64,000 bases of DNA. Source: Octopus vulgaris. Its lineage: Eukaryota. Positions 24,916 through 55,973 of the stretch are shown in pieces (within the stretch, counting starts at the first letter, position 1; every line of letters starts with the position of its first letter). Under the pieces are notes generated by a model. The model saw only the letters and a program-made list of their open reading frames with translations, searched no databases and was not told the DNA's origin. Position numbers and translations under genes: made by a program. The stretch is taken from positions 12,772,001 through 12,836,000 of the forward strand of contig OX597823.1 of the NCBI GenBank assembly GCA_951406725.2, in the 5' to 3' direction.

Positions 24916-25657
24916 AGGATCTTTACCTTTTGACTGAGAGATTTAAAACATTTTTTTTTTTACTAAACACTTTCAATCTTCGGACACTGGTAGAATGTGT
25001 CATATAAAACATCCTTTACTCTTAGCATTTTTGAGAAAAACTTATATTTACGAAGTTATTTCACATTAAAGTTGTCCTATTTTGGTAATTTCAACCAATC
25101 AATGACGTGTATTCAGTTGAATGAAATTACTGCCGTTATTTGTCAACAAGAACTTCCGGAGGTGTATATTCCGTTTGTCACTACTATTTATCACAACCCC
25201 AAACCTAAACCGTAGCCCTAAACTTAAAAACCTAACCCTAAAAACCTAGCCCCAACACCCTAACCCTAACCCTAACCCTAACCCTAAAACCCTAGCCCTA
25301 ACCCTAAAACCCTAGCCCTAACCCTAAAACCATATCCCTAAAACCTTAAAGCTAAAACCAGTACAATCGCACGAACGATGTCATAAGTAACAGTGACAAA
25401 CGAAAAATACACCGCCGATAGTTGTTGACAAACAACGGCAGTAATTTTATTCAACTGAATACACGTCATTGATTGGCTGAAATTACTGAAATAGGACAAT
25501 TTTAACGTGAAATAACTTCGTAAACATAAGTTTTTTCTCAAAATTGCTAAGAGTAAAAGATGTTTTATGTGATACATTCTACCAGTGTCCGAAGTTTGAA
25601 AGTGTTTAGTTGCAAAAAATAGTTTTTTAAATCTGTAGGTCAAAATGTAAAGATCCC
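24916..25657. mobile_element. MITE with about 270-bp TIRs and a telomeric-repeat core
   Basis: Left arm ggatctttacctttgact... is the reverse complement of the right arm ...ggtcaaaatgtaaagatccc. Flanking duplication atcatg(a)/atcttg(a); removing the insert restores mariner FHHDNA. Confidence 0.85.
25195..25357. repeat. Degenerate (CCCTAA)n telomere-like repeat
   Basis: ccctaaccctaaccctaa with ccctag and cctaaaa variants. Confidence 0.9.
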
Positions 25658-39053: not shown

Positions 39054-39636
39054 AACGGTGAGCTGATAGAAACGTTAACACGCCAGGCGAAATGCATTGC
39101 GGTATTTCATCTGCCGTTACATTCTGAGTTCAACTTCCTCGGAGGTCGACTTTGCCTTTCATCATTTCGGGGTCGATTAAAAAAGTACCAGTTACGCACT
39201 GGAGTCAATGTAATCGACTTGATCCGTGTATCTGTCCTTGTTTGCACCCTCTGTGTTTAGCCCCTTGTGGGTAGTAAAGAAATAGGTATTTCGTCTGCCG
39301 TTATGTTCTGAGTTCAAATTCCGCGGAGGTCGACTTTGCCTTTCATCATTTCGGGGTCGATTAAATAAGTACCAGTTACGCACTGGAGTCGATGTAATCG
39401 ACTTGATCCGTGTGTCAGTCCTTGTTTGTACCCTCTGTGTTTAGCCCCTTGTGGGTAGTAAAGAAATAGGTATTTCTTCCGCCTTTACGTTCTGAGTTCA
39501 AATTCCGCCGAGGTCGACTTTGCTTTTCATCCATTCGGGATCGATAAATTAAGTAGCAGTCGTGTACTGGGGTCGATCTAATCGACTGGTCCCTCCTCAA
39601 AAATGTCGGGCTTTAAGCCTAGAATAGAAAAGAATA
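39054..39636 (+). mobile_element. SINE-B trimer (tail1-tail1-tail2)
   Basis: Two aaagaaata|ggtatttc junctions (about 39283, 39468). The last unit ends with ccctcctcaaaaatgtcgggc...agaaaagaat. Confidence 0.85.
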
Positions 39637-40258: not shown

Positions 40259-40677
40259 TCTTTTTCTCTTTTATTCTCTTTTTCTCTTTTACTTGTTTCA
40301 GTCATTTGACTGTGGCCATGCTGGAGCACCGCCTTTAGTCGAGCAAATCGACCCCAGGACTTATTCTTTGTAAGCCCAGTACTTATCCTAGCGGTCTCTT
40401 TTGCCGAACCGCTAAGTGACGGGTACGTAAACACACCAGCATCGGTTGTCAAGCAATGCTAGGGGAACAAACACAGACACACAAACACACACACGCATAT
40501 ATACATATATACAACGGGCTTCTTTCAGTTTCCGTCTACCAAATCCACTCACAAGGCTTTGGTCGGCCCGAGGCTATAGTAGAAGACACTTACCCAAGGT
40601 GCCACGCAGTGGGACTGAACCCGGAACCATGCGGTTGGTAAGCAAGCTACTTACCACACAGCCACTCCTGCGCCTAT
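40259..40677 (-). mobile_element. SINE-A, full length
   Basis: Minus strand aggcgcaggagtggctgtgtggtaagtagcttgcttaccaacc...tgactgaaacaagtaaaagag. Shows the uninterrupted target site. Confidence 0.9.
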
Positions 40678-41568
40678 GTACATATATTCTGCTTTACAAA
40701 TAAATAAATATATCTGACACAGATGCCCATCTTTTTTTTGGAACGATTCTGTAAATTTGAGTTGTTCTCTGCCATTATCTTTTTCCTGCTTATCAGCAAT
40801 TGCATGAAATTTTTTTTTATACTGTTTCCGAAGTATATTTTTCCCAAATATATGTTTTTGTTTTATTGCATGACAAAGTTCAAAAATTGAAATACTTTTC
40901 AATTTAATTTTCACTGCTCAACGAAATTCGTATTTAATTAGTTTTGTTGCTAATGGTTTCCTATCCCCCCCCCCAAAAAAAAATTATTTATCTTTTTCCT
41001 GTTGATGTGTACACATGTTCGAGAAAATTTCAAACTTTTTAATTACTTGTCATATAGTTTATGTTCTTGGTTCACATGGAATCCGCACTATAGCTATTCA
41101 TGAGTAACAAAACCTCTTTACTTAAGTTGGAGTCAACGAGGAAACCTTTCACTAGACTAGTGACTCGCTAGAAATAGAAGCCAAATTTCCTTAAACAAGC
41201 ACGTGTTTGCATCTCTCTACGCAGTCATAAGCAAGATTTTTCTGGAATACTGGGAGTTGTCTTTGCATACACATCCCTACTTCCTCATCAACATGTTAAC
41301 TCAAAGAAAAGACCATCGCTTTATGACTAATATAGCTTGGAACCAGTGTTGTCTTAAGCGTTGTAAGGTATTGCATCCGATGTTCTATCGATAATCTGTT
41401 ATTGATCTCGAAATGAAATAAAGGTAACGGGGATTTCAATGACATTTGAAGTAAGAGTGACGAGATTAGGAGAGAGTACCTTCAGGAATTCCATCGATCG
41501 CTCGTGTGATTTTGCGAATTTATCGCCATAGAAAGTACAGACACTAATTTCTTCCCGAAAAGTCAAAT

Positions 41569-41852
41569 TACTCTTTTACTCTTTCACTCTTTTACTCTTG
41601 AACCCGGAACCATGTGGTTGGTAAGCAAGCTACTTACCACACAGCCACTCCTGCGCCTATGTACATATATTCTGCTTTACAAATAAATACGCATATATAT
41701 ATACATATATACGACGGGCTTCTTTCAGTTTCCGTCTACCAAATCCACTCACAAGGCTTTGGTCGGCCCGGGGCTATAGCGGAAGATACTTGCCCAAGAT
41801 GCCACGCAGTGGGACTGAACCCGGGACCATGTGATTGGTTAGCAAGCTACTT
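41569..41852 (-). mobile_element. SINE-A 3' portion (host of the ORF1-only elements)
   Basis: Tail (aagagtaa)n at 41569-41598, body to ...aagtagcttgctaacca. The 5' head continues at 46395-46436. Confidence 0.85.
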
Positions 41853-43912
41853 TATTTTATATAATTTGCCACTAGGGCAGCACACAGAGTAGTTGCGGGC
41901 TGGACAAGGACATTAATGGATGATGGTGGTGGTGGTGGATGACGATGGTGATGGGAGAAGTCAGAAAGCGCCCGCCGACTTTTGCTTCTCTAAAACAATG
42001 TTCTTTTTTTTTCAATAATTTACAAACTTTCAAAAATTACAAAAAATTCAAAAAATTTTCACAAAAATTTCAATTTACAATTTACACTTTTAAAAGTCTC
42101 TTCAGAGGCAATAAACCTCTGTCACAATGTAACACAATTACAATTTTACGTTACCCGACCGATGAACTCTCTTGCTTTAATGACGCAATCGTCCATCGTC
42201 AGGCTTCCGCATACAGGTATGACTTGCAAGAGATCCTCCGGGAAAGAATTCTCAATCCTGCACATATCATTTTCGAGTAGGACCTCCGCAGCCAGCTGCG
42301 AAGGCCACTCGGGATACTCCATGCAGGACCGAAGTCCCTCCCATTGGTTTCTCTTCCTCCTCTTACGTATTTCATTTTCTACAGTGCCTCCTTTACGGAA
42401 GAGGACTACATAAAATTTCTCCGGCATCACAATCGCCGGAGGAAACATGGGAGACGCCCTCTGGGTGTTACAGTCCGCTAGTGGCGTCCCGTTCCTCTTT
42501 TTCTTTTTCTTTTTACGCTGGGCCTCGGGAGGTTGAGGTTCCGGTGCTATACGCACCGGGTCCTCTTTTTCTTCCGCAGCCTCCGGTTCCTTGGGTGGGT
42601 CGCCATTGCTCCCCACTCTTCTTTTTCTTTTGGAGGAGGATTTTTCCCCCTCCTCACTTTGTTTCTCTCCCTCCATTGGTGGGGCAGGGAGAGGCTCTGA
42701 TATTAACTTCTCCAGGATCCTACTCTGGTTCCTGGGGCAGTTTCTCTTAATGTGGCCGGTCTCCGAACACAGGTGACACTTGGGGGCGCGTCCCTCAAGT
42801 ATCACCGGATACTTGGACCCGGCCATCTTCAAGAAGTCCGGCAAAACCAGACTCTTGGCCGACTGGGTCCACAGAGTCAAAGTAGCCTTTGCCCCTTCCC
42901 AGTCAGCTGCAGGCTCTATCTTCACGTTCAGGATCTTGGCGCTACCGCCACTCAGACCCCGGCGGATGGAATCTTCCACCCACTCGGGCTCAAAGCCTGG
43001 CGGCAGGCCGCAGACCCATAATCGTATCAATTTTTCCCCCTTATAGCTGGGAGAAACAGAATCTCTTCGCCCTCAATGGGCTTACTCGCGAAATCGCAAG
43101 CTGCTTTAGGGGAGTCAAACAGCAACCAAATCGTTGCGTATTTGGCTCCCCGTTGAATATATTTAACGGCTGGCATATAATCTGCCAGCTCGTTCATAAT
43201 GGTAGCTTTTGGGAAAACCATTATGGTATCGAGCGACCTCGAATATGTCCTCAATACCACGGTTCTGTCCTCGAGCTCCTTTAAGTACTTTTTGGGAGGT
43301 GTTAATTCCCACACTGAAATTCCTTGCCATAAGGTAAGAAAAACAGTTCAAAATGTTACAAAATAAATTATTAGACACAGAAAGGAGAATGAAAAAAGCA
43401 ACAGAAGGGAAGAAATAAAATTAAAATGGCAGTTCAAAAAAAGTACTTTTTTTTTTTACAAATGAATGATAGACGGAGAAAGAGAGTTCAAATTCAGACA
43501 AAGGAATTAATTTTTCTTTTTTTTTTTTTTTTGTTCACTTTTTCTGCCAAAAATTGTATTCCAGGCCAAATACACAGTTGGTGAAACACCTTGGTAAAAT
43601 AATCCTTGGTAAATCCCGTGGATAACACAACGACAATTTCAAAAATAATTTTTGCAGACGGACTACGCCGCCTCAAAAACACAATTTTCTTCACACCCGA
43701 CAACAGGCAGAAAAATTATATCCGGAGCAAAGTGGAGCCTTATTATCTGCTAAAAAATATTTAATGCTAAAAAACATTAATGCAAGTAATAAAACTTCAC
43801 TTCGCTCGCAAAAATACAAAATTCCTACCTTTAGTCGAGTCGAAAGTTCAACAATTCACGTTGAAACAACGTGGCATCTGGAGCAGCAAAATAACACGTC
43901 CGAACAGTTCAG
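41853..43912 (-). mobile_element. ORF1-only non-LTR retroelement, copy A (HAL1-like, Tx1/L1-type ORF1)
   Basis: Bounded by target repeats tggttagcaagctactt (41836-41852) and aggttagcaagctactt (43913-43929). One 5' monomer, ORF1, about 290-bp 3' UTR ending ataaaata. No ORF2. Confidence 0.8.
42146..43330 (-). pseudogene. Gag-like ORF1 (RRM-like plus CCHC zinc knuckle), two frameshifts
   Basis: Colinear with the 399-aa copy. 2-bp loss near 43312 and 1-bp loss in a C run near 43050. Contains CHLCSETGHIKRNC (CX2CX4HX4C). Confidence 0.8.
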
Positions 43913-44217
43913 AGGTTAGCAAGCTACTTTATTTTATTTAATTTGCCACAAGGGCAGTACACAGATAGTAGCTACGGGCTGGACATAGACATTAATGAAT
44001 GATGGTGATGGAATGAAGATGGTGATGGGAGAAGACGAAAGCGCCCGCCGACCCCCGCTTCTCTAAATCAATGTTCTTTTTTCAATAATTTTACAAAATT
44101 TTCAAAATTTCACAAAAATACAAAAATTTCACAAAAATTCCAAATTTTACAAATCACAATTTCAAAAGTTTTTCCAGAGGCAAAAAACCTCCATCACAAT
44201 ATAACACAAATACAGGT

Positions 44218-45417
44218 TCACGTTACCCGACCGATGAACGCTCTTGCTTTATTGACGCAATCGTTCGCCGTCAGGCCCCCGCATACAGGTAAAATTTGAT
44301 AGGAGCCCTCCGGGAAAGACTTCACGAACCTGCACCGATCGTCATGGAGTAGGACCTCCGCAGCCAGCTGCGAAGGCCACTCGGGATACTCCATGCAGGA
44401 CCGAAGTCCCTCCCATTGGTTTCTCTTCCTCATTTTACTTATTTCATCTTCTATTGTTCCTCCTTTGTAGAAGAGGACTACATAATATTTCTCCGGCCAC
44501 ACAATCACATACGGCGGAGGAGACATTGGAGACGCCGTCTGCGTGTTACAATCCGCTGGCGGCGTTCCGTTTCTCTTCTTTCTTTTTTTCTTTTTACCGT
44601 GGGCCACGGGAGGTTGAGGTTCCGGTGTTGCACACGCCGGATCCACTCTATCTCTCGTAGCTTCCTGGTCTTTTAGTGGGTCACCATTGTTCCCCACTTT
44701 CCGTTTTCTCGTTGAGGAAGTCTCCGCTTCCTCGTTCTGTTTCTCTCCCTCTATTGGTGGGGCAGGGAGAGGCTCCGATATCAACTTCTCCAGGATCCTA
44801 CTTTGGTCCCTGGGGCATTTCTTCTTAATGTGGCCGGTCTCCGAACACAGGTGACACTTGGGGGCGCGTCCCTCTAGCATCACCGGATACTTGGACCCGG
44901 CCATCTTCAGGAAGTCCGGCAAAACCAGACTCTTGGCCGACTGGGTCCACAGAGTCAGAGTAGCCTTTCCTCCTTCCCAGTTAGCCGCAGGCTGCATTTT
45001 CACATTCAGGATCTTGGCGCTACCACCGCTCAAACCCCGGCGGATGGAATCTTCCACCCACTCGGGCTCAAAGCCGGGCGGCAGGCCACAGACCCATAAA
45101 CGTAACAATTTTTCCCCCTTGTAACTGGGGAGAAACAGAATCTCATCGCCCTCAATGGGCTGGCTTGCAAATTTGCAAGCTGCTTCAGCGGAGTCAAATA
45201 GCAACCATACCGTTGCGTATTTGACTCCCCGTTGAATATGTTTAACGGCTGGCATATAGTCTGCCAGCTCGTTCACAATGGTGTCTCTCGGAAAAACCAT
45301 TATGGTGTCGAGTGACTTTGAATATGTCCTCAACACCACGGTCTTTTCCTCGAGTTCGTGCAAATATTTTTTGGGAGGTGTTAATTCCCACACAGTGAAA
45401 TTCTTTGCCTTTGCCAT
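44218..45417 (-). CDS. 399-aa gag-like ORF1 protein: RRM-like segments, LEGRAPK-CX2CX4HX4C knuckle, basic linker, conserved C-terminal domain
   Basis: Intact ATG-to-stop ORF, visibly GC-rich relative to the background. CHLCSETGHIKKKC knuckle. Synonymous differences versus copy A. Confidence 0.85.
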   Translation of the reverse strand: MAKAKNFTVWELTPPKKYLHELEEKTVVLRTYSKSLDTIMVFPRDTIVNELADYMPAVKHIQRGVKYATVWLLFDSAEAACKFASQPIEGDEILFLPSYKGEKLLRLWVCGLPPGFEPEWVEDSIRRGLSGGSAKILNVKMQPAANWEGGKATLTLWTQSAKSLVLPDFLKMAGSKYPVMLEGRAPKCHLCSETGHIKKKCPRDQSRILEKLISEPLPAPPIEGEKQNEEAETSSTRKRKVGNNGDPLKDQEATRDRVDPACATPEPQPPVAHGKKKKRKKRNGTPPADCNTQTASPMSPPPYVIVWPEKYYVVLFYKGGTIEDEISKMRKRNQWEGLRSCMEYPEWPSQLAAEVLLHDDRCRFVKSFPEGSYQILPVCGGLTANDCVNKARAFIGRVT

Positions 45418-45763
45418 AACTTAAAATACAACAGTTCAAAATGATAAACTAAAATTAGCCACAGAAAGGAGAATGAAAATGCAACAAAAGGGAAGAAATA
45501 AAAATGGCAGTTCAAAAAAGTTTTTACAAATAAATGATAGAAGAGAAAGAGAGTTCAAATCAGGCAAAGGAATTCAGTTTTCTTTTTTCTTTTTTTTTTT
45601 TTCACACTTCTTCGGCCAAAATGGTAATCCAGGCCAAATGCACTTGGTAAACCTTGGTAAATAATCCTTGGTGAAACCCTTGGTAAATAATCCTTGGTAA
45701 TCCGTGGACAACACAACGACAATTTCAACAATAATTTTTTCAGACGGACTATGCCGCTTCAAA

Positions 45764-46360
45764 AATACAATTTCTTTTCACTCGACACAGGCAGAAAAAT
45801 TATATCTGGAGCAAAGTGGAGCCTTATTATTTGCTAAAAAATATTAAATGCTAAAAAACATTCATGCAAGTAATAAAACTTCACTAAACTCGCAAAAACA
45901 TAAAACGCCTACCCGCAGTCGATTCGAACGTTCAACAATTCACGTTGAAACAACGCGACATCAATACAATTTTCTTTTCACTCGACACAGGCAGAAAAAT
46001 TATATCCGGAGCAAAGTGGAGCCCTATTATCTGCTAAAAATATTAAATGCTAAAAAACATTCATGCAAGTAATAAAACTTCACTAAACTCGCAAAAACAT
46101 AAAACGCCTACCCGTAGTCGATTCGAACGTTCAACAATTCACGTTGAAACAACGCGACATCAATACAATTTTCTTTCCACTCGACACAGGCAGAAAAATT
46201 ATATCTGGAGCAGAGTGGAGCCCTATTATCTGCTAAAATATATTTAATGCTAAAAAACATTAATGTAAGTAATAAAACTTCACTTCGCTCACAAAAATAC
46301 AAAATTCCTACCTTTAGTCGAGTCAAAAGTTCAACAATTCACGTTGAAACACGTGGCATC
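45764..46360 (-). repeat. Three tandem 199-bp monomers in the 5' UTR of copy B
   Basis: Unit starts (aatacaat) at 45764, 45963 and 46162. Copy A has a single unit at about 43680-43878. Confidence 0.9.
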
Positions 46361-46394
46361 TGGAGCAGCAAAAAAACACGTCTGAACAGTTCAG

Positions 46395-46436
46395 TGGTTA
46401 GCGAGCTACTTACCACACAGCCACTCCTGCGCCTAT
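46395..46436 (-). mobile_element. SINE-A 5' head (completes the 41569-41852 copy)
   Basis: Minus strand taggcgcaggagtggctgtgtggtaagtagctcgctaacca. Confidence 0.85.
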
Positions 46437-46788
46437 ATCTTTTTTTTAAAAAAATAGCATAATAAAGTTATATGATTATATTTAATCTAATTTTAACAAA
46501 CCTGAAGTAGAACATGCACAGTTATTAGTTTGTTCGAGTATATTTGTACGAAATAAAAGATGAACGACTGCAGGAAAGTAGGAGCAATTTTTCGAGTGGA
46601 TTTGATAAACAAGACTAAATGAAATATTCTTTTACGGAGCGAGAAAAAGATAATGGGGGATTATAATGCGCTGCAGTTTCAAGATTATTCATGAATAGCG
46701 TTCGTATTTATGAACAGCAATAATAATCTGAATGAATTTAATGATTCTTCCACAACACTGCTGAGTATTTCAATTACATAGCAGTATT

Positions 46789-47173
46789 CTCTTTTACTTG
46801 TTTCAGTCATGTGGCTGTGGCCATGCTGGAGGGCCGCCTTTAATCGAGCGAATCGACCCCAGGACTTATTCTTTATAAGCCAAGTACTTATTCTATCGGT
46901 CTCTTTTGCCGAACCGCTATGTTACGGGGGCGTAAACAAACCAGCATCGGTTGTCAAGCGATCTTGGTGGGGGAGAAACACAGACACACAAACATACATA
47001 CATATATATATATATATACATAAATACGACGGGTTTCTTTTAGTTTCCGTCTACTAAATCCTCTCACAAGGCTATAGTAGAAGACCCTTGCCCATGGTGC
47101 CACGCAGTAGGACCGAACCCGGAACCTTGTGGCTGGTAAGCAAACTACTTACCACACAGCCACCCCAACGCCT
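46789..47173 (-). mobile_element. SINE-A, full length
   Basis: Tail, body, internal microsatellite and head ggctgtgtggtaagtagtttgc. Confidence 0.85.
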
Positions 47174-53835: not shown

Positions 53836-55335
53836 AAACTTAAAACTTAATAAAACTTAGATATGTTTCGACCAGAGATTGGTCCAGGCCATGTCTAACT
53901 TAATAGCACCACCTGATAGGATTATTCGAATCCTGTTTAAGTCAAGTTTTGTTCAAGTAGTGAGTTCTTGTTGGGTGAGTTGTATCCAATTATGGGTGGC
54001 TTGTCTGGTATTCTTTGAAGGAATCTATCCAGACTCTGTTTGAAGTTGATGGGATCCTTTTCCTCTTTGATCTCCCTCGGGACAATGTTAAATAGGGCAG
54101 GGCCTGTTGAGGAAAAGAAATTATGTTGCAGTGTACATGTATGTTGTGATCTTGAATTTGGCAGGGGACGTATAGCCCGTGGTCCAAGTCTCGGATGAAC
54201 CTTGAAGCTAATGTTTAGGTCGTTTGGGCAAAGTTGGCGGTATATTTTCCACATCGTACAAATGATGTACCGCTCACGGCGACGCTGGAGGGAGTAAAGT
54301 TTCAAGGCTTTAAGGCGATCCCAATAGTCGAGAGCAGCCATGCCTTCAATTTGTTTAGTGAGAGCCCTCTGGGGTGACTCAATTCTGGAGATGTTTTGTC
54401 TTGTGTGAGGAGACCACAGTGGGCAGCAGTATTCAAGGTGTGGCCGTACAAAGGATGAAAAAAGTGGTATGATGACACCTTGTTCTCTGGACCGGAAAGT
54501 TCTTAAGATCCAGGAACTCATCCTACGAGCTGTATCGACCTTCTTGTTGATGTGTGCACTCCAACTGAGATCGTCATCAACAATTACACCCAGGTCTCTG
54601 ATATTGTTAGAGGCTGTGAGCGGTTCCCCTGAAGGAAGAGCGTATGGTTGTTTTAGTGAGGAATTTCTTCCAAAATGCATCAGCTCAAATTTTCCCTCGT
54701 TCAGTTGCATTTTGTTTCTGTCTGCCCATTGACTCTCAGCATATAGGTCAGACTGGAGTTGAGTTCGGTCTGCTTCTTCATTGACGATTTGCTGGAGCTT
54801 AGTGTCATCAGCGAATATTTTCACTTTGCAGTGATGTACGACACTGGAAAGGTCGTTTACATAAATTATGAAGAGTAGCGGACCCAAAACAGTTCCCTGG
54901 GGAACACCGCTGGTGACTTTTGCTGGGTTTGAGTGGACTCCATCAACTACAACATGTTGTGTTCTATTCGCTAGGAAATACTGAATCCAGTGTAGAACTT
55001 TTCCACGGATTCCAACATTTGCCAATTTTGAGAGTAGGATGTTATGGTCTACCCTGTCGAACGCTTTACTGAAGTCAAGGTATATGACGTCAGAGTTCGA
55101 ACCTGTTCCCAAGGCTTTGAGTACATCTTCAATGTGGTGTAAGAGCTGTGTTAGACAGTCCCTGCCACAGCGAAAGCCATGTTGATTTGAATTTAGGAGT
55201 TTGTGGGTCTCCAGGAAGTCAGCTATCATTGATCTTAACACTCTTTCAAACACTTTAATGATGTGGGAGGTGAGTGAGATTGGGCGATAGTTGACTGGAG
55301 AGGGATCTGTTTCCCTGTTTGAAAACCGGGATGAC
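53834..55335 (-). mobile_element. 5'-truncated CR1-like LINE inserted in a (TA)n microsatellite
   Basis: RT ORF plus a short 3' UTR with hairpin and (aagtttt)n tail. (TA)n on both sides. Confidence 0.88.
53937..55335 (-). pseudogene. CR1-like reverse transcriptase (C-terminal part of ORF2)
   Basis: [45 protein letters not shown]. Open apart from a 1-bp shift near 55298 ([18 protein letters not shown]). Confidence 0.9.
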
Positions 55336-55350
55336 ATATATATATACATA

Positions 55351-55515
<165 letters not shown>

Positions 55516-55973
55516 ATATATTGTATTAGTCTAAAGAGCGTTCGTAGTGAAAGCAGATGTCTTTTGATAGGTACCATGTGTAAGTGCAAATTTCTTCTGT
55601 AAGCCTCGAGAATATTGCATAATTAATGGGGATTCAGAAAGCCCAGAGTCGTCAACTCTGATATGTTGGTTTATTCTATATGCGATGCTTGATGATTTTC
55701 TTCAAGACAAGACATAATTAATTCAAATGTCCATCTCATGCCTGCAATTTAAAAATTCAAATGATTTCAGCCATTGGAATAAAGTCATGCTGGATAATCG
55801 GTTCCAGAGTTTTCAGTCAATTTTATCAACGCCGATACTTAAATATTGTCGATTCTAATTATCTCTTCACTATTTCTCCAAGCTACCTCTCTTTAGATGG
55901 TTCCTTCTATTTCAGTAGTATACAATGTATATCATGTCTTAAAAGGTATATACGAACATAAACACACAGGCAA

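What the first reader, a model, noticed from the sequence alone, without database searches (positions are those of the whole stretch)
42146..45417. ORF1 of the two copies appears to be under purifying selection, implying independent insertions rather than local duplication
Seen: the proteins are nearly invariant across the RRM-like/knuckle core but diverge in the linker. SIRRGLSGGS is encoded with three synonymous differences (ctg/ttg, agt/agc, ggc/ggt), and the UTRs differ by indels. Inference: two subfamilies that need their own ORF1 in cis inserted separately at the same site.
Basis: partly seen in the sequence, partly recalled or inferred. Interest (0 to 1): 0.7.

Follow-up and report, generated by a model that had tools for sequence, protein, structure and literature searches.

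The report
Half-LINE twins keeping their own ORF1
Two stripped-down jumping genes from different subfamilies sit head to tail at one exact base of a very common short repeat in what is likely an octopus genome; their lineages kept the RNA-binding gene under purifying selection although one copy here is broken, likely because each RNA needs its own protein while borrowing the copying enzyme of a full-length relative.

Summary
Observation largely confirmed. The window holds two ORF1-only non-LTR elements (A, B; minus strand, no ORF2) stacked at one base of a tRNA-type SINE head. dN/dS between them is 0.35-0.45 overall and 0.21-0.27 in the two-RRM/knuckle core, but 0.8-1.0 in the C-terminal part. 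They are not a local duplication: B's nearest copies (98-99%) and A's (96-97%) lie on other contigs, and A-B identity is 86%. Selection acted on source lineages: core changes shared by several copies are mostly silent (106:60), private ones mostly replacement (40:85). A young 5.45-kb LINE with endonuclease and RT uses the same site and is the likely helper; its ORF1 is only about 27% identical. 'Independent' holds for the source, not for the site: about 0.8% of targets are filled, yet 15 of 36 clade members sit directly upstream of another unit, against 0 of 29 young helper copies. Two separate insertions (about 55%) versus one event with template jumping (about 30%) is unresolved. This scan found the system before on other DNA of this genome; the selection analysis is the addition. 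It resembles HAL1/HeT-A plus the crocodilian Tx1-Mar system.

The parts
46412..46434 (-). 5' piece of the host SINE head, upstream of the insertion point
   Evidence: matches the first bases of the intact SINE copy at 40290-40680
46396..46411 (-). 5' junction 16-mer of B: first 8 bases equal the target, the rest is a variant shared with B-type copies at other loci (partly element-borne target look-alike)
43930..46395 (-). Unit B, ORF1-only element, about 2.47 kb
45764..46351 (-). 2.9 tandem 199-bp monomers in B's 5' UTR (promoter role is inference)
44218..45417 (-). ORF1 of B, open, 399 aa: two RRM-like domains (about 26-99 and 104-181), CCHC knuckle (187-202), linker, C-terminal domain
43930..44217 (-). 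3' UTR of B; last about 150 bases conserved across ORF1-only subfamilies; terminal TGCC..TGGCAAAT..AAATA motif also ends the autonomous LINE
43914..43929 (-). internal junction 16-mer between B's 3' end and A's 5' end
41853..43913 (-). Unit A, ORF1-only element, about 2.06 kb, one 5' monomer
42146..43330 (-). ORF1 of A, broken by two private frameshifts (near 43314 and near 43050)
41837..41852 (-). 3' junction 16-mer (target copy) continuing into the SINE body
41693..41836 (-). remainder of the host SINE head and body

Best explanation
A and B are copies of two different subfamilies of an ORF1-only retrotransposon whose source elements kept the two-RRM/knuckle core under purifying selection, likely because each RNA is packaged by its own ORF1 protein while borrowing endonuclease and reverse transcriptase from a full-length LINE that uses the same SINE site, and they likely arrived in two steps, A first. 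Shown: separate ancestry, lineage-level selection, strict site use, existence of a full-length element at the same site with a similar 3' end. Inferred: (1) the helper's endonuclease nicks the SINE head at GGT|AAGTAGCTT; (2) the ORF1-only RNA is copied there through its shared 3' tail; (3) a 7-16 base duplication plus an element-borne target look-alike rebuilds the site at the 5' junction; (4) B later inserted there, pushing A 3'; (5) after insertion copies decay neutrally, hence A's frameshifts. Something makes occupied sites much more attractive to this clade than chance; that step is unexplained.
For: Separate ancestry: B's five nearest copies 98-99%, A's nearest 96-97%, A-B 86%; different clades, and in 13 of 13 sliding windows B ranks 15th-40th among A's 42 neighbours. 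Selection: core dN/dS 0.21-0.27; internal branches 0.24 vs young tips 0.52 in the core, p=0.0004; core silent:replacement 106:60 shared vs 40:85 private, p=8e-8; C-terminus 24:33 vs 10:44, p=0.008. The 26 ORF1-only proteins form one clade (100/100), far from 6 other ORF1s. Site: 84 of 85 tails abut the target (read by eye); 29 of 30 young helper copies too. Helper: three 5.4-kb copies with ORF1 and ORF2; knuckle, endonuclease, RT and zf-RVT domains. Two steps: at C7:113.3 Mb a private target variant is present at all three junctions, which needs two duplications; A has more private change than B (14/2071 vs 6/2273, p=0.07) and two frameshifts against none.
Against: No age polarity across arrays: the 5' unit is the younger in only 8 of 22 scorable pairs (pairs lacking close relatives were dropped). 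Stacking is far above chance and clade-biased: 493 filled vs 58,538 empty exact targets, yet 15 of 36 clade units have another unit directly 3' against 0 of 29 young helper copies, which a shared endonuclease alone does not explain. Young terminal branches are also below 1 (0.52), so the tip/internal contrast is blurred by unsampled sources. Copies are mosaic, which weakens tree-based rates. Linker shows no private/shared contrast (p=0.72). A one-base frameshift at codon 256 (in an A run, after the core) is shared by 5 copies and may be inherited. Helper use and cis action are not tested.
Confidence: 0.6

Rival explanations
1. One insertion event with two templates: the reverse transcriptase copied A's RNA to its 5' end and jumped to the 3' end of B's RNA. 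A full-length cDNA would end in the same bases as the nicked target because the RNA likely starts with a target look-alike, so it could re-prime a second RNA. Selection and ancestry conclusions are unchanged.
For: Clade-biased stacking: 15 of 36 vs 0 of 29; 5 of 25 genome-wide copies with the A/B-type 5' end have a unit upstream. No age polarity; 19 of 22 pairs do not differ in private change at p<0.05. 5' junction variants recur across loci and are absent from the commonest 3' junction and empty-target variants. Mosaic copies suggest switching between RNAs.
Against: The C7:113.3 Mb array has a locus-private variant at its internal junction. A looks older than B. Helper-type copies do occur upstream of other units in L199 and L201. 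Tandem R1 and SINEU-3 arrays are read as sequential in print (PMC2718515, PMC4494074).
Confidence: 0.28
2. A read-through B+A transcript from another array was copied as one unit.
For: Arrays show recurring orders (U2-type, B, A, then other subfamily or helper). B-type directly followed by an A-like unit also occurs on C4.
Against: The C4 A-like unit is only 93% identical to A and belongs to another subgroup. Three sister A-like copies sit upstream of three different partners. The exact-pattern census shows no second B+A pair with this junction type.
Confidence: 0.09
3. Local tandem duplication followed by divergence or conversion.
For: Head-to-tail layout; local duplication does seem to occur elsewhere (C10:101.18 Mb, near-equal 2-kb units with identical junctions).
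Against: A and B are never each other's nearest relative in 13 of 13 windows; dN/dS well below 1; 5' junctions differ.
Confidence: 0.02

Closest known systems
ORF1-present non-autonomous LINEs: HAL1 (L1 clade), HeT-A (Jockey), Ag-Sponge (CR1) (PMC5786205 and PMC5753468, passages; the primary HAL1 paper PMC2923044 was not held)
   Same: LINE ends kept, ORF1 kept, ORF2 absent; ORF1-only lineages that persist and spawn subfamilies, as for Drosophila telomeric elements (PMC13534243, passages)
   Different: RRM+RRM+CCHC ORF1 from the L1/Tx1 side rather than Transposase_22; strict insertion at one base of a SINE; ORF1 only about 27% identical to the likely helper's
Transposon-targeting Tx1 systems: Tx1L in Tx1D; crocodilian Tx1-Mar with SINEU-3 in Mariner-N4_AMi (PMC4494074, passages and section 14)
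   Same: Autonomous and dependent elements share a site inside an abundant repeat and stack with a target copy between them
   Different: Target is a SINE head, not a DNA transposon; passengers encode a selected protein; part of the 'duplication' travels with the element
Tandem R1 arrays in 28S rDNA (PMC2718515, passages)
   Same: Units separated by a 14-16 base target copy; insertion at the rebuilt 5' junction proposed; dN/dS about 0.3
   Different: R1 is autonomous and occupies 8-75% of its targets, so tandems are expected; here occupancy is about 0.8%

Membership tests
ORF1-present non-autonomous LINE | encodes ORF1 only, no ORF2 | tested here: met
   no RT or endonuclease in either unit or in relatives' units
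ORF1-present non-autonomous LINE | dispersed copies with retrotransposition marks (fixed 3' end, 5' truncations, target duplication) | tested here: met
   (truncated copies duplicate 7-16 or more bases)
ORF1-present non-autonomous LINE | ORF1 functional (under constraint) | tested here: met
ORF1-present non-autonomous LINE | derived from an identifiable autonomous counterpart by internal deletion | tested here: inconclusive
   shares site and about 30 terminal bases with the helper, but ORF1 identity is about 27%; no close progenitor found
ORF1-present non-autonomous LINE | mobilised in trans by the partner's ORF2 | not testable with these tools
   inferred from shared site and tail
HAL1 (strict) | mammalian L1-type ORF1 (Transposase_22) | tested here: not met
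   Pfam gives only zf-CCHC; fold is tandem RRM
Tx1 clade (helper) | APE endonuclease + RT + C-terminal zinc-binding domain, RRM/CCHC ORF1 | tested here: met
   best solved-structure match is LINE-1 ORF2p, E 3e-48
Tx1 clade (helper) | target-sequence specificity | tested here: met
   29 of 30 young copies abut the same SINE base (3 of the 30 were already known from the junction search)
Tx1 clade (helper) | RT phylogeny groups with named Tx1 elements | not tested
   no named Tx1 reference came; 'Tx1-like' rests on anatomy
HeT-A | Jockey-clade Gag, telomere targeting | tested here: not met
   interstitial SINE target on many contigs

The most novel reading that the evidence does not exclude
The ORF1-only lineage keeps its own, highly diverged ORF1 because that protein, with the target look-alike at RNA 5' ends, lets its RNA be chained onto other elements: either grabbed by the helper's reverse transcriptase at the end of another template or steered to sites already occupied. 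That would be a hitch-hiking mode of LINE parasitism that builds mixed arrays at under 1% target occupancy, with site choice set by the passenger rather than by the endonuclease alone.
Probability: 0.3. Interest if true: 0.75.

Novelty: new variant of a known kind. Interest (0 to 1): 0.5.

Why it matters
Purifying selection on a transposon gene is expected, and ORF1-only LINEs are known from three clades. What this adds is a clean natural test of why such elements keep ORF1: a dispersed, many-subfamily lineage with no ORF2, neutral decay after insertion and strong constraint before it, beside a young helper with a fixed, abundant target. That makes cis preference of ORF1, helper choice and array formation directly assayable. 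A LINE that inserts at one base of a SINE could also interest people who seek site-specific insertion tools. I found no description in print in seven searches; subscription journals and Repbase were not searchable, and supplements were not read.

Tried and rejected
Reads: only short contigs were held; they could not phase alleles or check A's frameshifts; no RNA holder listed. Rfam and ARAGORN: nothing at threshold, so 'tRNA-type head' rests on recalled A/B-box-like motifs. Folding B's and A's 3' ends with the target: no better than shuffles (z 0.58, -0.34); helper end z -2.18. Codon-model tree in IQ-TREE timed out; replaced by a DNA tree and my own GY94 fit on fixed branch proportions. Homology search for ORF1 found one protein, named Octopus sinensis uncharacterized, 60%; ORF2 search gave no informative names. 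The ORF2-bearing LINE in the C7:13.49 Mb array was rejected as helper: it is nested inside an A-type unit and has another tail. Inflated dS from mutation bias was rejected because private changes, under the same process, give 40:85; note though that A-B UTR differences (6-13%) are below silent-site differences (about 20-24%).

Full report
What is there. The stretch holds two homologous units on the minus strand: B (46395-43930) and A (43913-41853), 84% identical, separated and flanked by three 16-base target-like junctions at 46396-46411, 43914-43929 and 41837-41852. Outside them lie the two halves of one SINE. B has an open 399-aa frame; A's frame is broken at codons 8 and 97. Neither carries ORF2. 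The genome is 2.8 Gb and the only protein relative found is named Octopus sinensis, so it is likely an octopus.

The protein. Pfam finds a zinc knuckle. A model built on 32 aligned relatives has mean pLDDT 82.6 and two mixed alpha/beta domains before the knuckle; the listed structural matches are multi-RRM proteins, E about 1e-4 with low TM-scores. The ESM Atlas lists CCHC and ZCCHC3-like clusters at 0.91-0.93. This is the RRM+CCHC type of ORF1 described for Tx1-like and plant L1 elements (PMC5203782, passages).

Selection between A and B. With broken and gap-adjacent codons masked (378 of 399 kept), dN/dS is 0.35 (95% 0.24-0.49) without and 0.45 (0.32-0.63) with a transition weight of 3; core 1-222: 0.21 and 0.27; linker: 0.38 and 0.50; C-terminus: 0.82 and 1.03. 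The three silent changes in SIRRGLSGGS are as stated.

Where selection acted. I aligned 43 near-full-length copies; 12 are fully open and 21 have an unbroken core. A three-ratio GY94 fit gives, for the core, 0.24 on internal branches, 0.52 on young tips, 0.29 on old tips (p=0.0004 against one ratio); for the whole ORF the three ratios do not differ (p=0.12). Among the 36 copies at least 85% identical to A or B, core changes seen once are 40 silent to 85 replacement, and changes shared by several copies 106 to 60 (p=8e-8); C-terminus 10:44 against 24:33 (p=0.008); linker 23:46 against 26:44 (p=0.72). So copies decay near-neutrally once inserted, and only sources with a conserved core left descendants. 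The frameshifts shared between copies that I inspected (codons 79, 184-185, 256) were either different events or lay in single-base runs. Because the constraint is on amino acids and on dispersed lineages, benefit to the encoding RNA (cis action) is the simplest reading; this is inference, and L1 cis preference is recalled.

Not a duplication. B's nearest copies are 98-99% identical and A's 96-97%, on other contigs. They fall in separate clades and B never ranks better than 15th among A's 42 neighbours in 13 windows.

The system. 84 of 85 element tails abut the same SINE base. An exact junction pattern has 493 matches, control 0; the exact empty target has 58,538. Of the first 73 listed junction sites, the 3'-most unit had ORF2 matches in 17, ORF1-only matches in 35 and none in 21. 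Three full-length 5.4-kb elements carry ORF1 and ORF2, with knuckle, endonuclease, RT and zf-RVT domains, closest to LINE-1 ORF2p among solved structures. The 40 best copies of their 3' end are 99-100% identical, and 29 of the 30 fetched abut the SINE directly; one was not oriented by my script. Their last 30 or so bases resemble the ORF1-only tail. Their ORF1 is about 27% identical to B's, and 26 ORF1-only proteins form one clade at 100/100. 5'-truncated copies duplicate 7-16 or more target bases, while full-length copies carry variants after base 8-9 that recur across loci and differ from the 3' copy at the same locus: part of the apparent duplication travels with the element. Following a lead from an earlier scan note, tails read AGCTAC at 79 of 116 AAGTAGCT targets and AGCTTC at 4 of 6 AAGAAGCT targets, never the reverse; the four may be one event.

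How independent? At about 0.8% occupancy second hits should be rare. In the 73-site sample the script called 3 multi-unit (one doubtful) and a fourth shows an internal junction; the 5' end was found for only 40, so this is a floor. In the A/B clade 15 of 36 units have another unit directly 3', 20 the SINE, 1 no target (three of the 15 share one array). Genome-wide, 5 of 25 copies with the A/B-type 5' end have a unit upstream. Young helper copies: 0 of 29 have a unit downstream, although helper-type copies do lie upstream of other units in L199 and L201. For two steps: a private target variant at all three junctions of the C7:113.3 Mb array, and A's greater decay (14/2071 vs 6/2273 private bases, p=0.07; two frameshifts against none). 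Against: the 5' unit is younger in only 8 of 22 scorable pairs. I put two steps at about 55-60%, one event with template jumping near 30%, a copied dimer near 10%.

Against what is known. ORF1-only LINEs are a named class (HAL1, HeT-A, Ag-Sponge; PMC5786205 passages; PMC5753468 passages) and common among Drosophila telomeric elements (PMC13534243 passages). Repeat-targeting Tx1 elements with stacked passengers are known in crocodilians (PMC4494074 passages and section 14), and tandem R1 arrays with dN/dS near 0.3 in Drosophila (PMC2718515 passages). A recent octopus repeat annotation lists active L1-Tx1 families, with no occurrence of 'target' or 'nested' in its main text (PMC13282606 passages); its supplements were not read. 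The scan's own notes describe this system at least eight times on other pieces of this genome.

Noticed in passing
window 39101-39587: 2.6 head-to-tail copies of a 184-bp unit of a second SINE-like repeat; 44 bases of its 3' end match (82%) the tail of a LINE fragment in L035. Possibly a second stacking system.
   Followed up: partly
window 53937-55622: Open frame with an RT domain (Pfam RVT_1, E 4e-30), 32% identical to the helper's RT over 150 aa; another LINE family.
   Followed up: partly
window 25195-25359: Degenerate telomere-like (CCCTAA) repeats in an interstitial position.
   Followed up: no
L035:6510-7870 (- strand): A different ORF1-only element with its own tail, just upstream of a SINE-target array; its ORF1 groups outside the clade studied here.
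   Followed up: partly
L035:4776 to L034:8470 (- strand): A full-length ORF1+ORF2 LINE with another tail is nested inside an A-type unit.
   Followed up: partly
L032:706-1914, L033:5083-6339: Mosaic subfamily with a B-like core and an unrelated C-terminal part, in several arrays; suggests module exchange between subfamilies.
   Followed up: partly
L209 (C10:101.177-101.187 Mb): About five near-equal 2-kb units with identical junctions, probably true local duplication, next to a helper-type ORF1.
   Followed up: partly
L121:1399-1504: A 106-base element keeping only the 5' end and tail of an ORF1-only subfamily, at the same target; copy number not checked.
   Followed up: no
runs X4, X7 on window 41200-46900: Runs labelled as two other organisms, 2-3% different in the unique flank, also hold contigs matching the element.
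   Followed up: no
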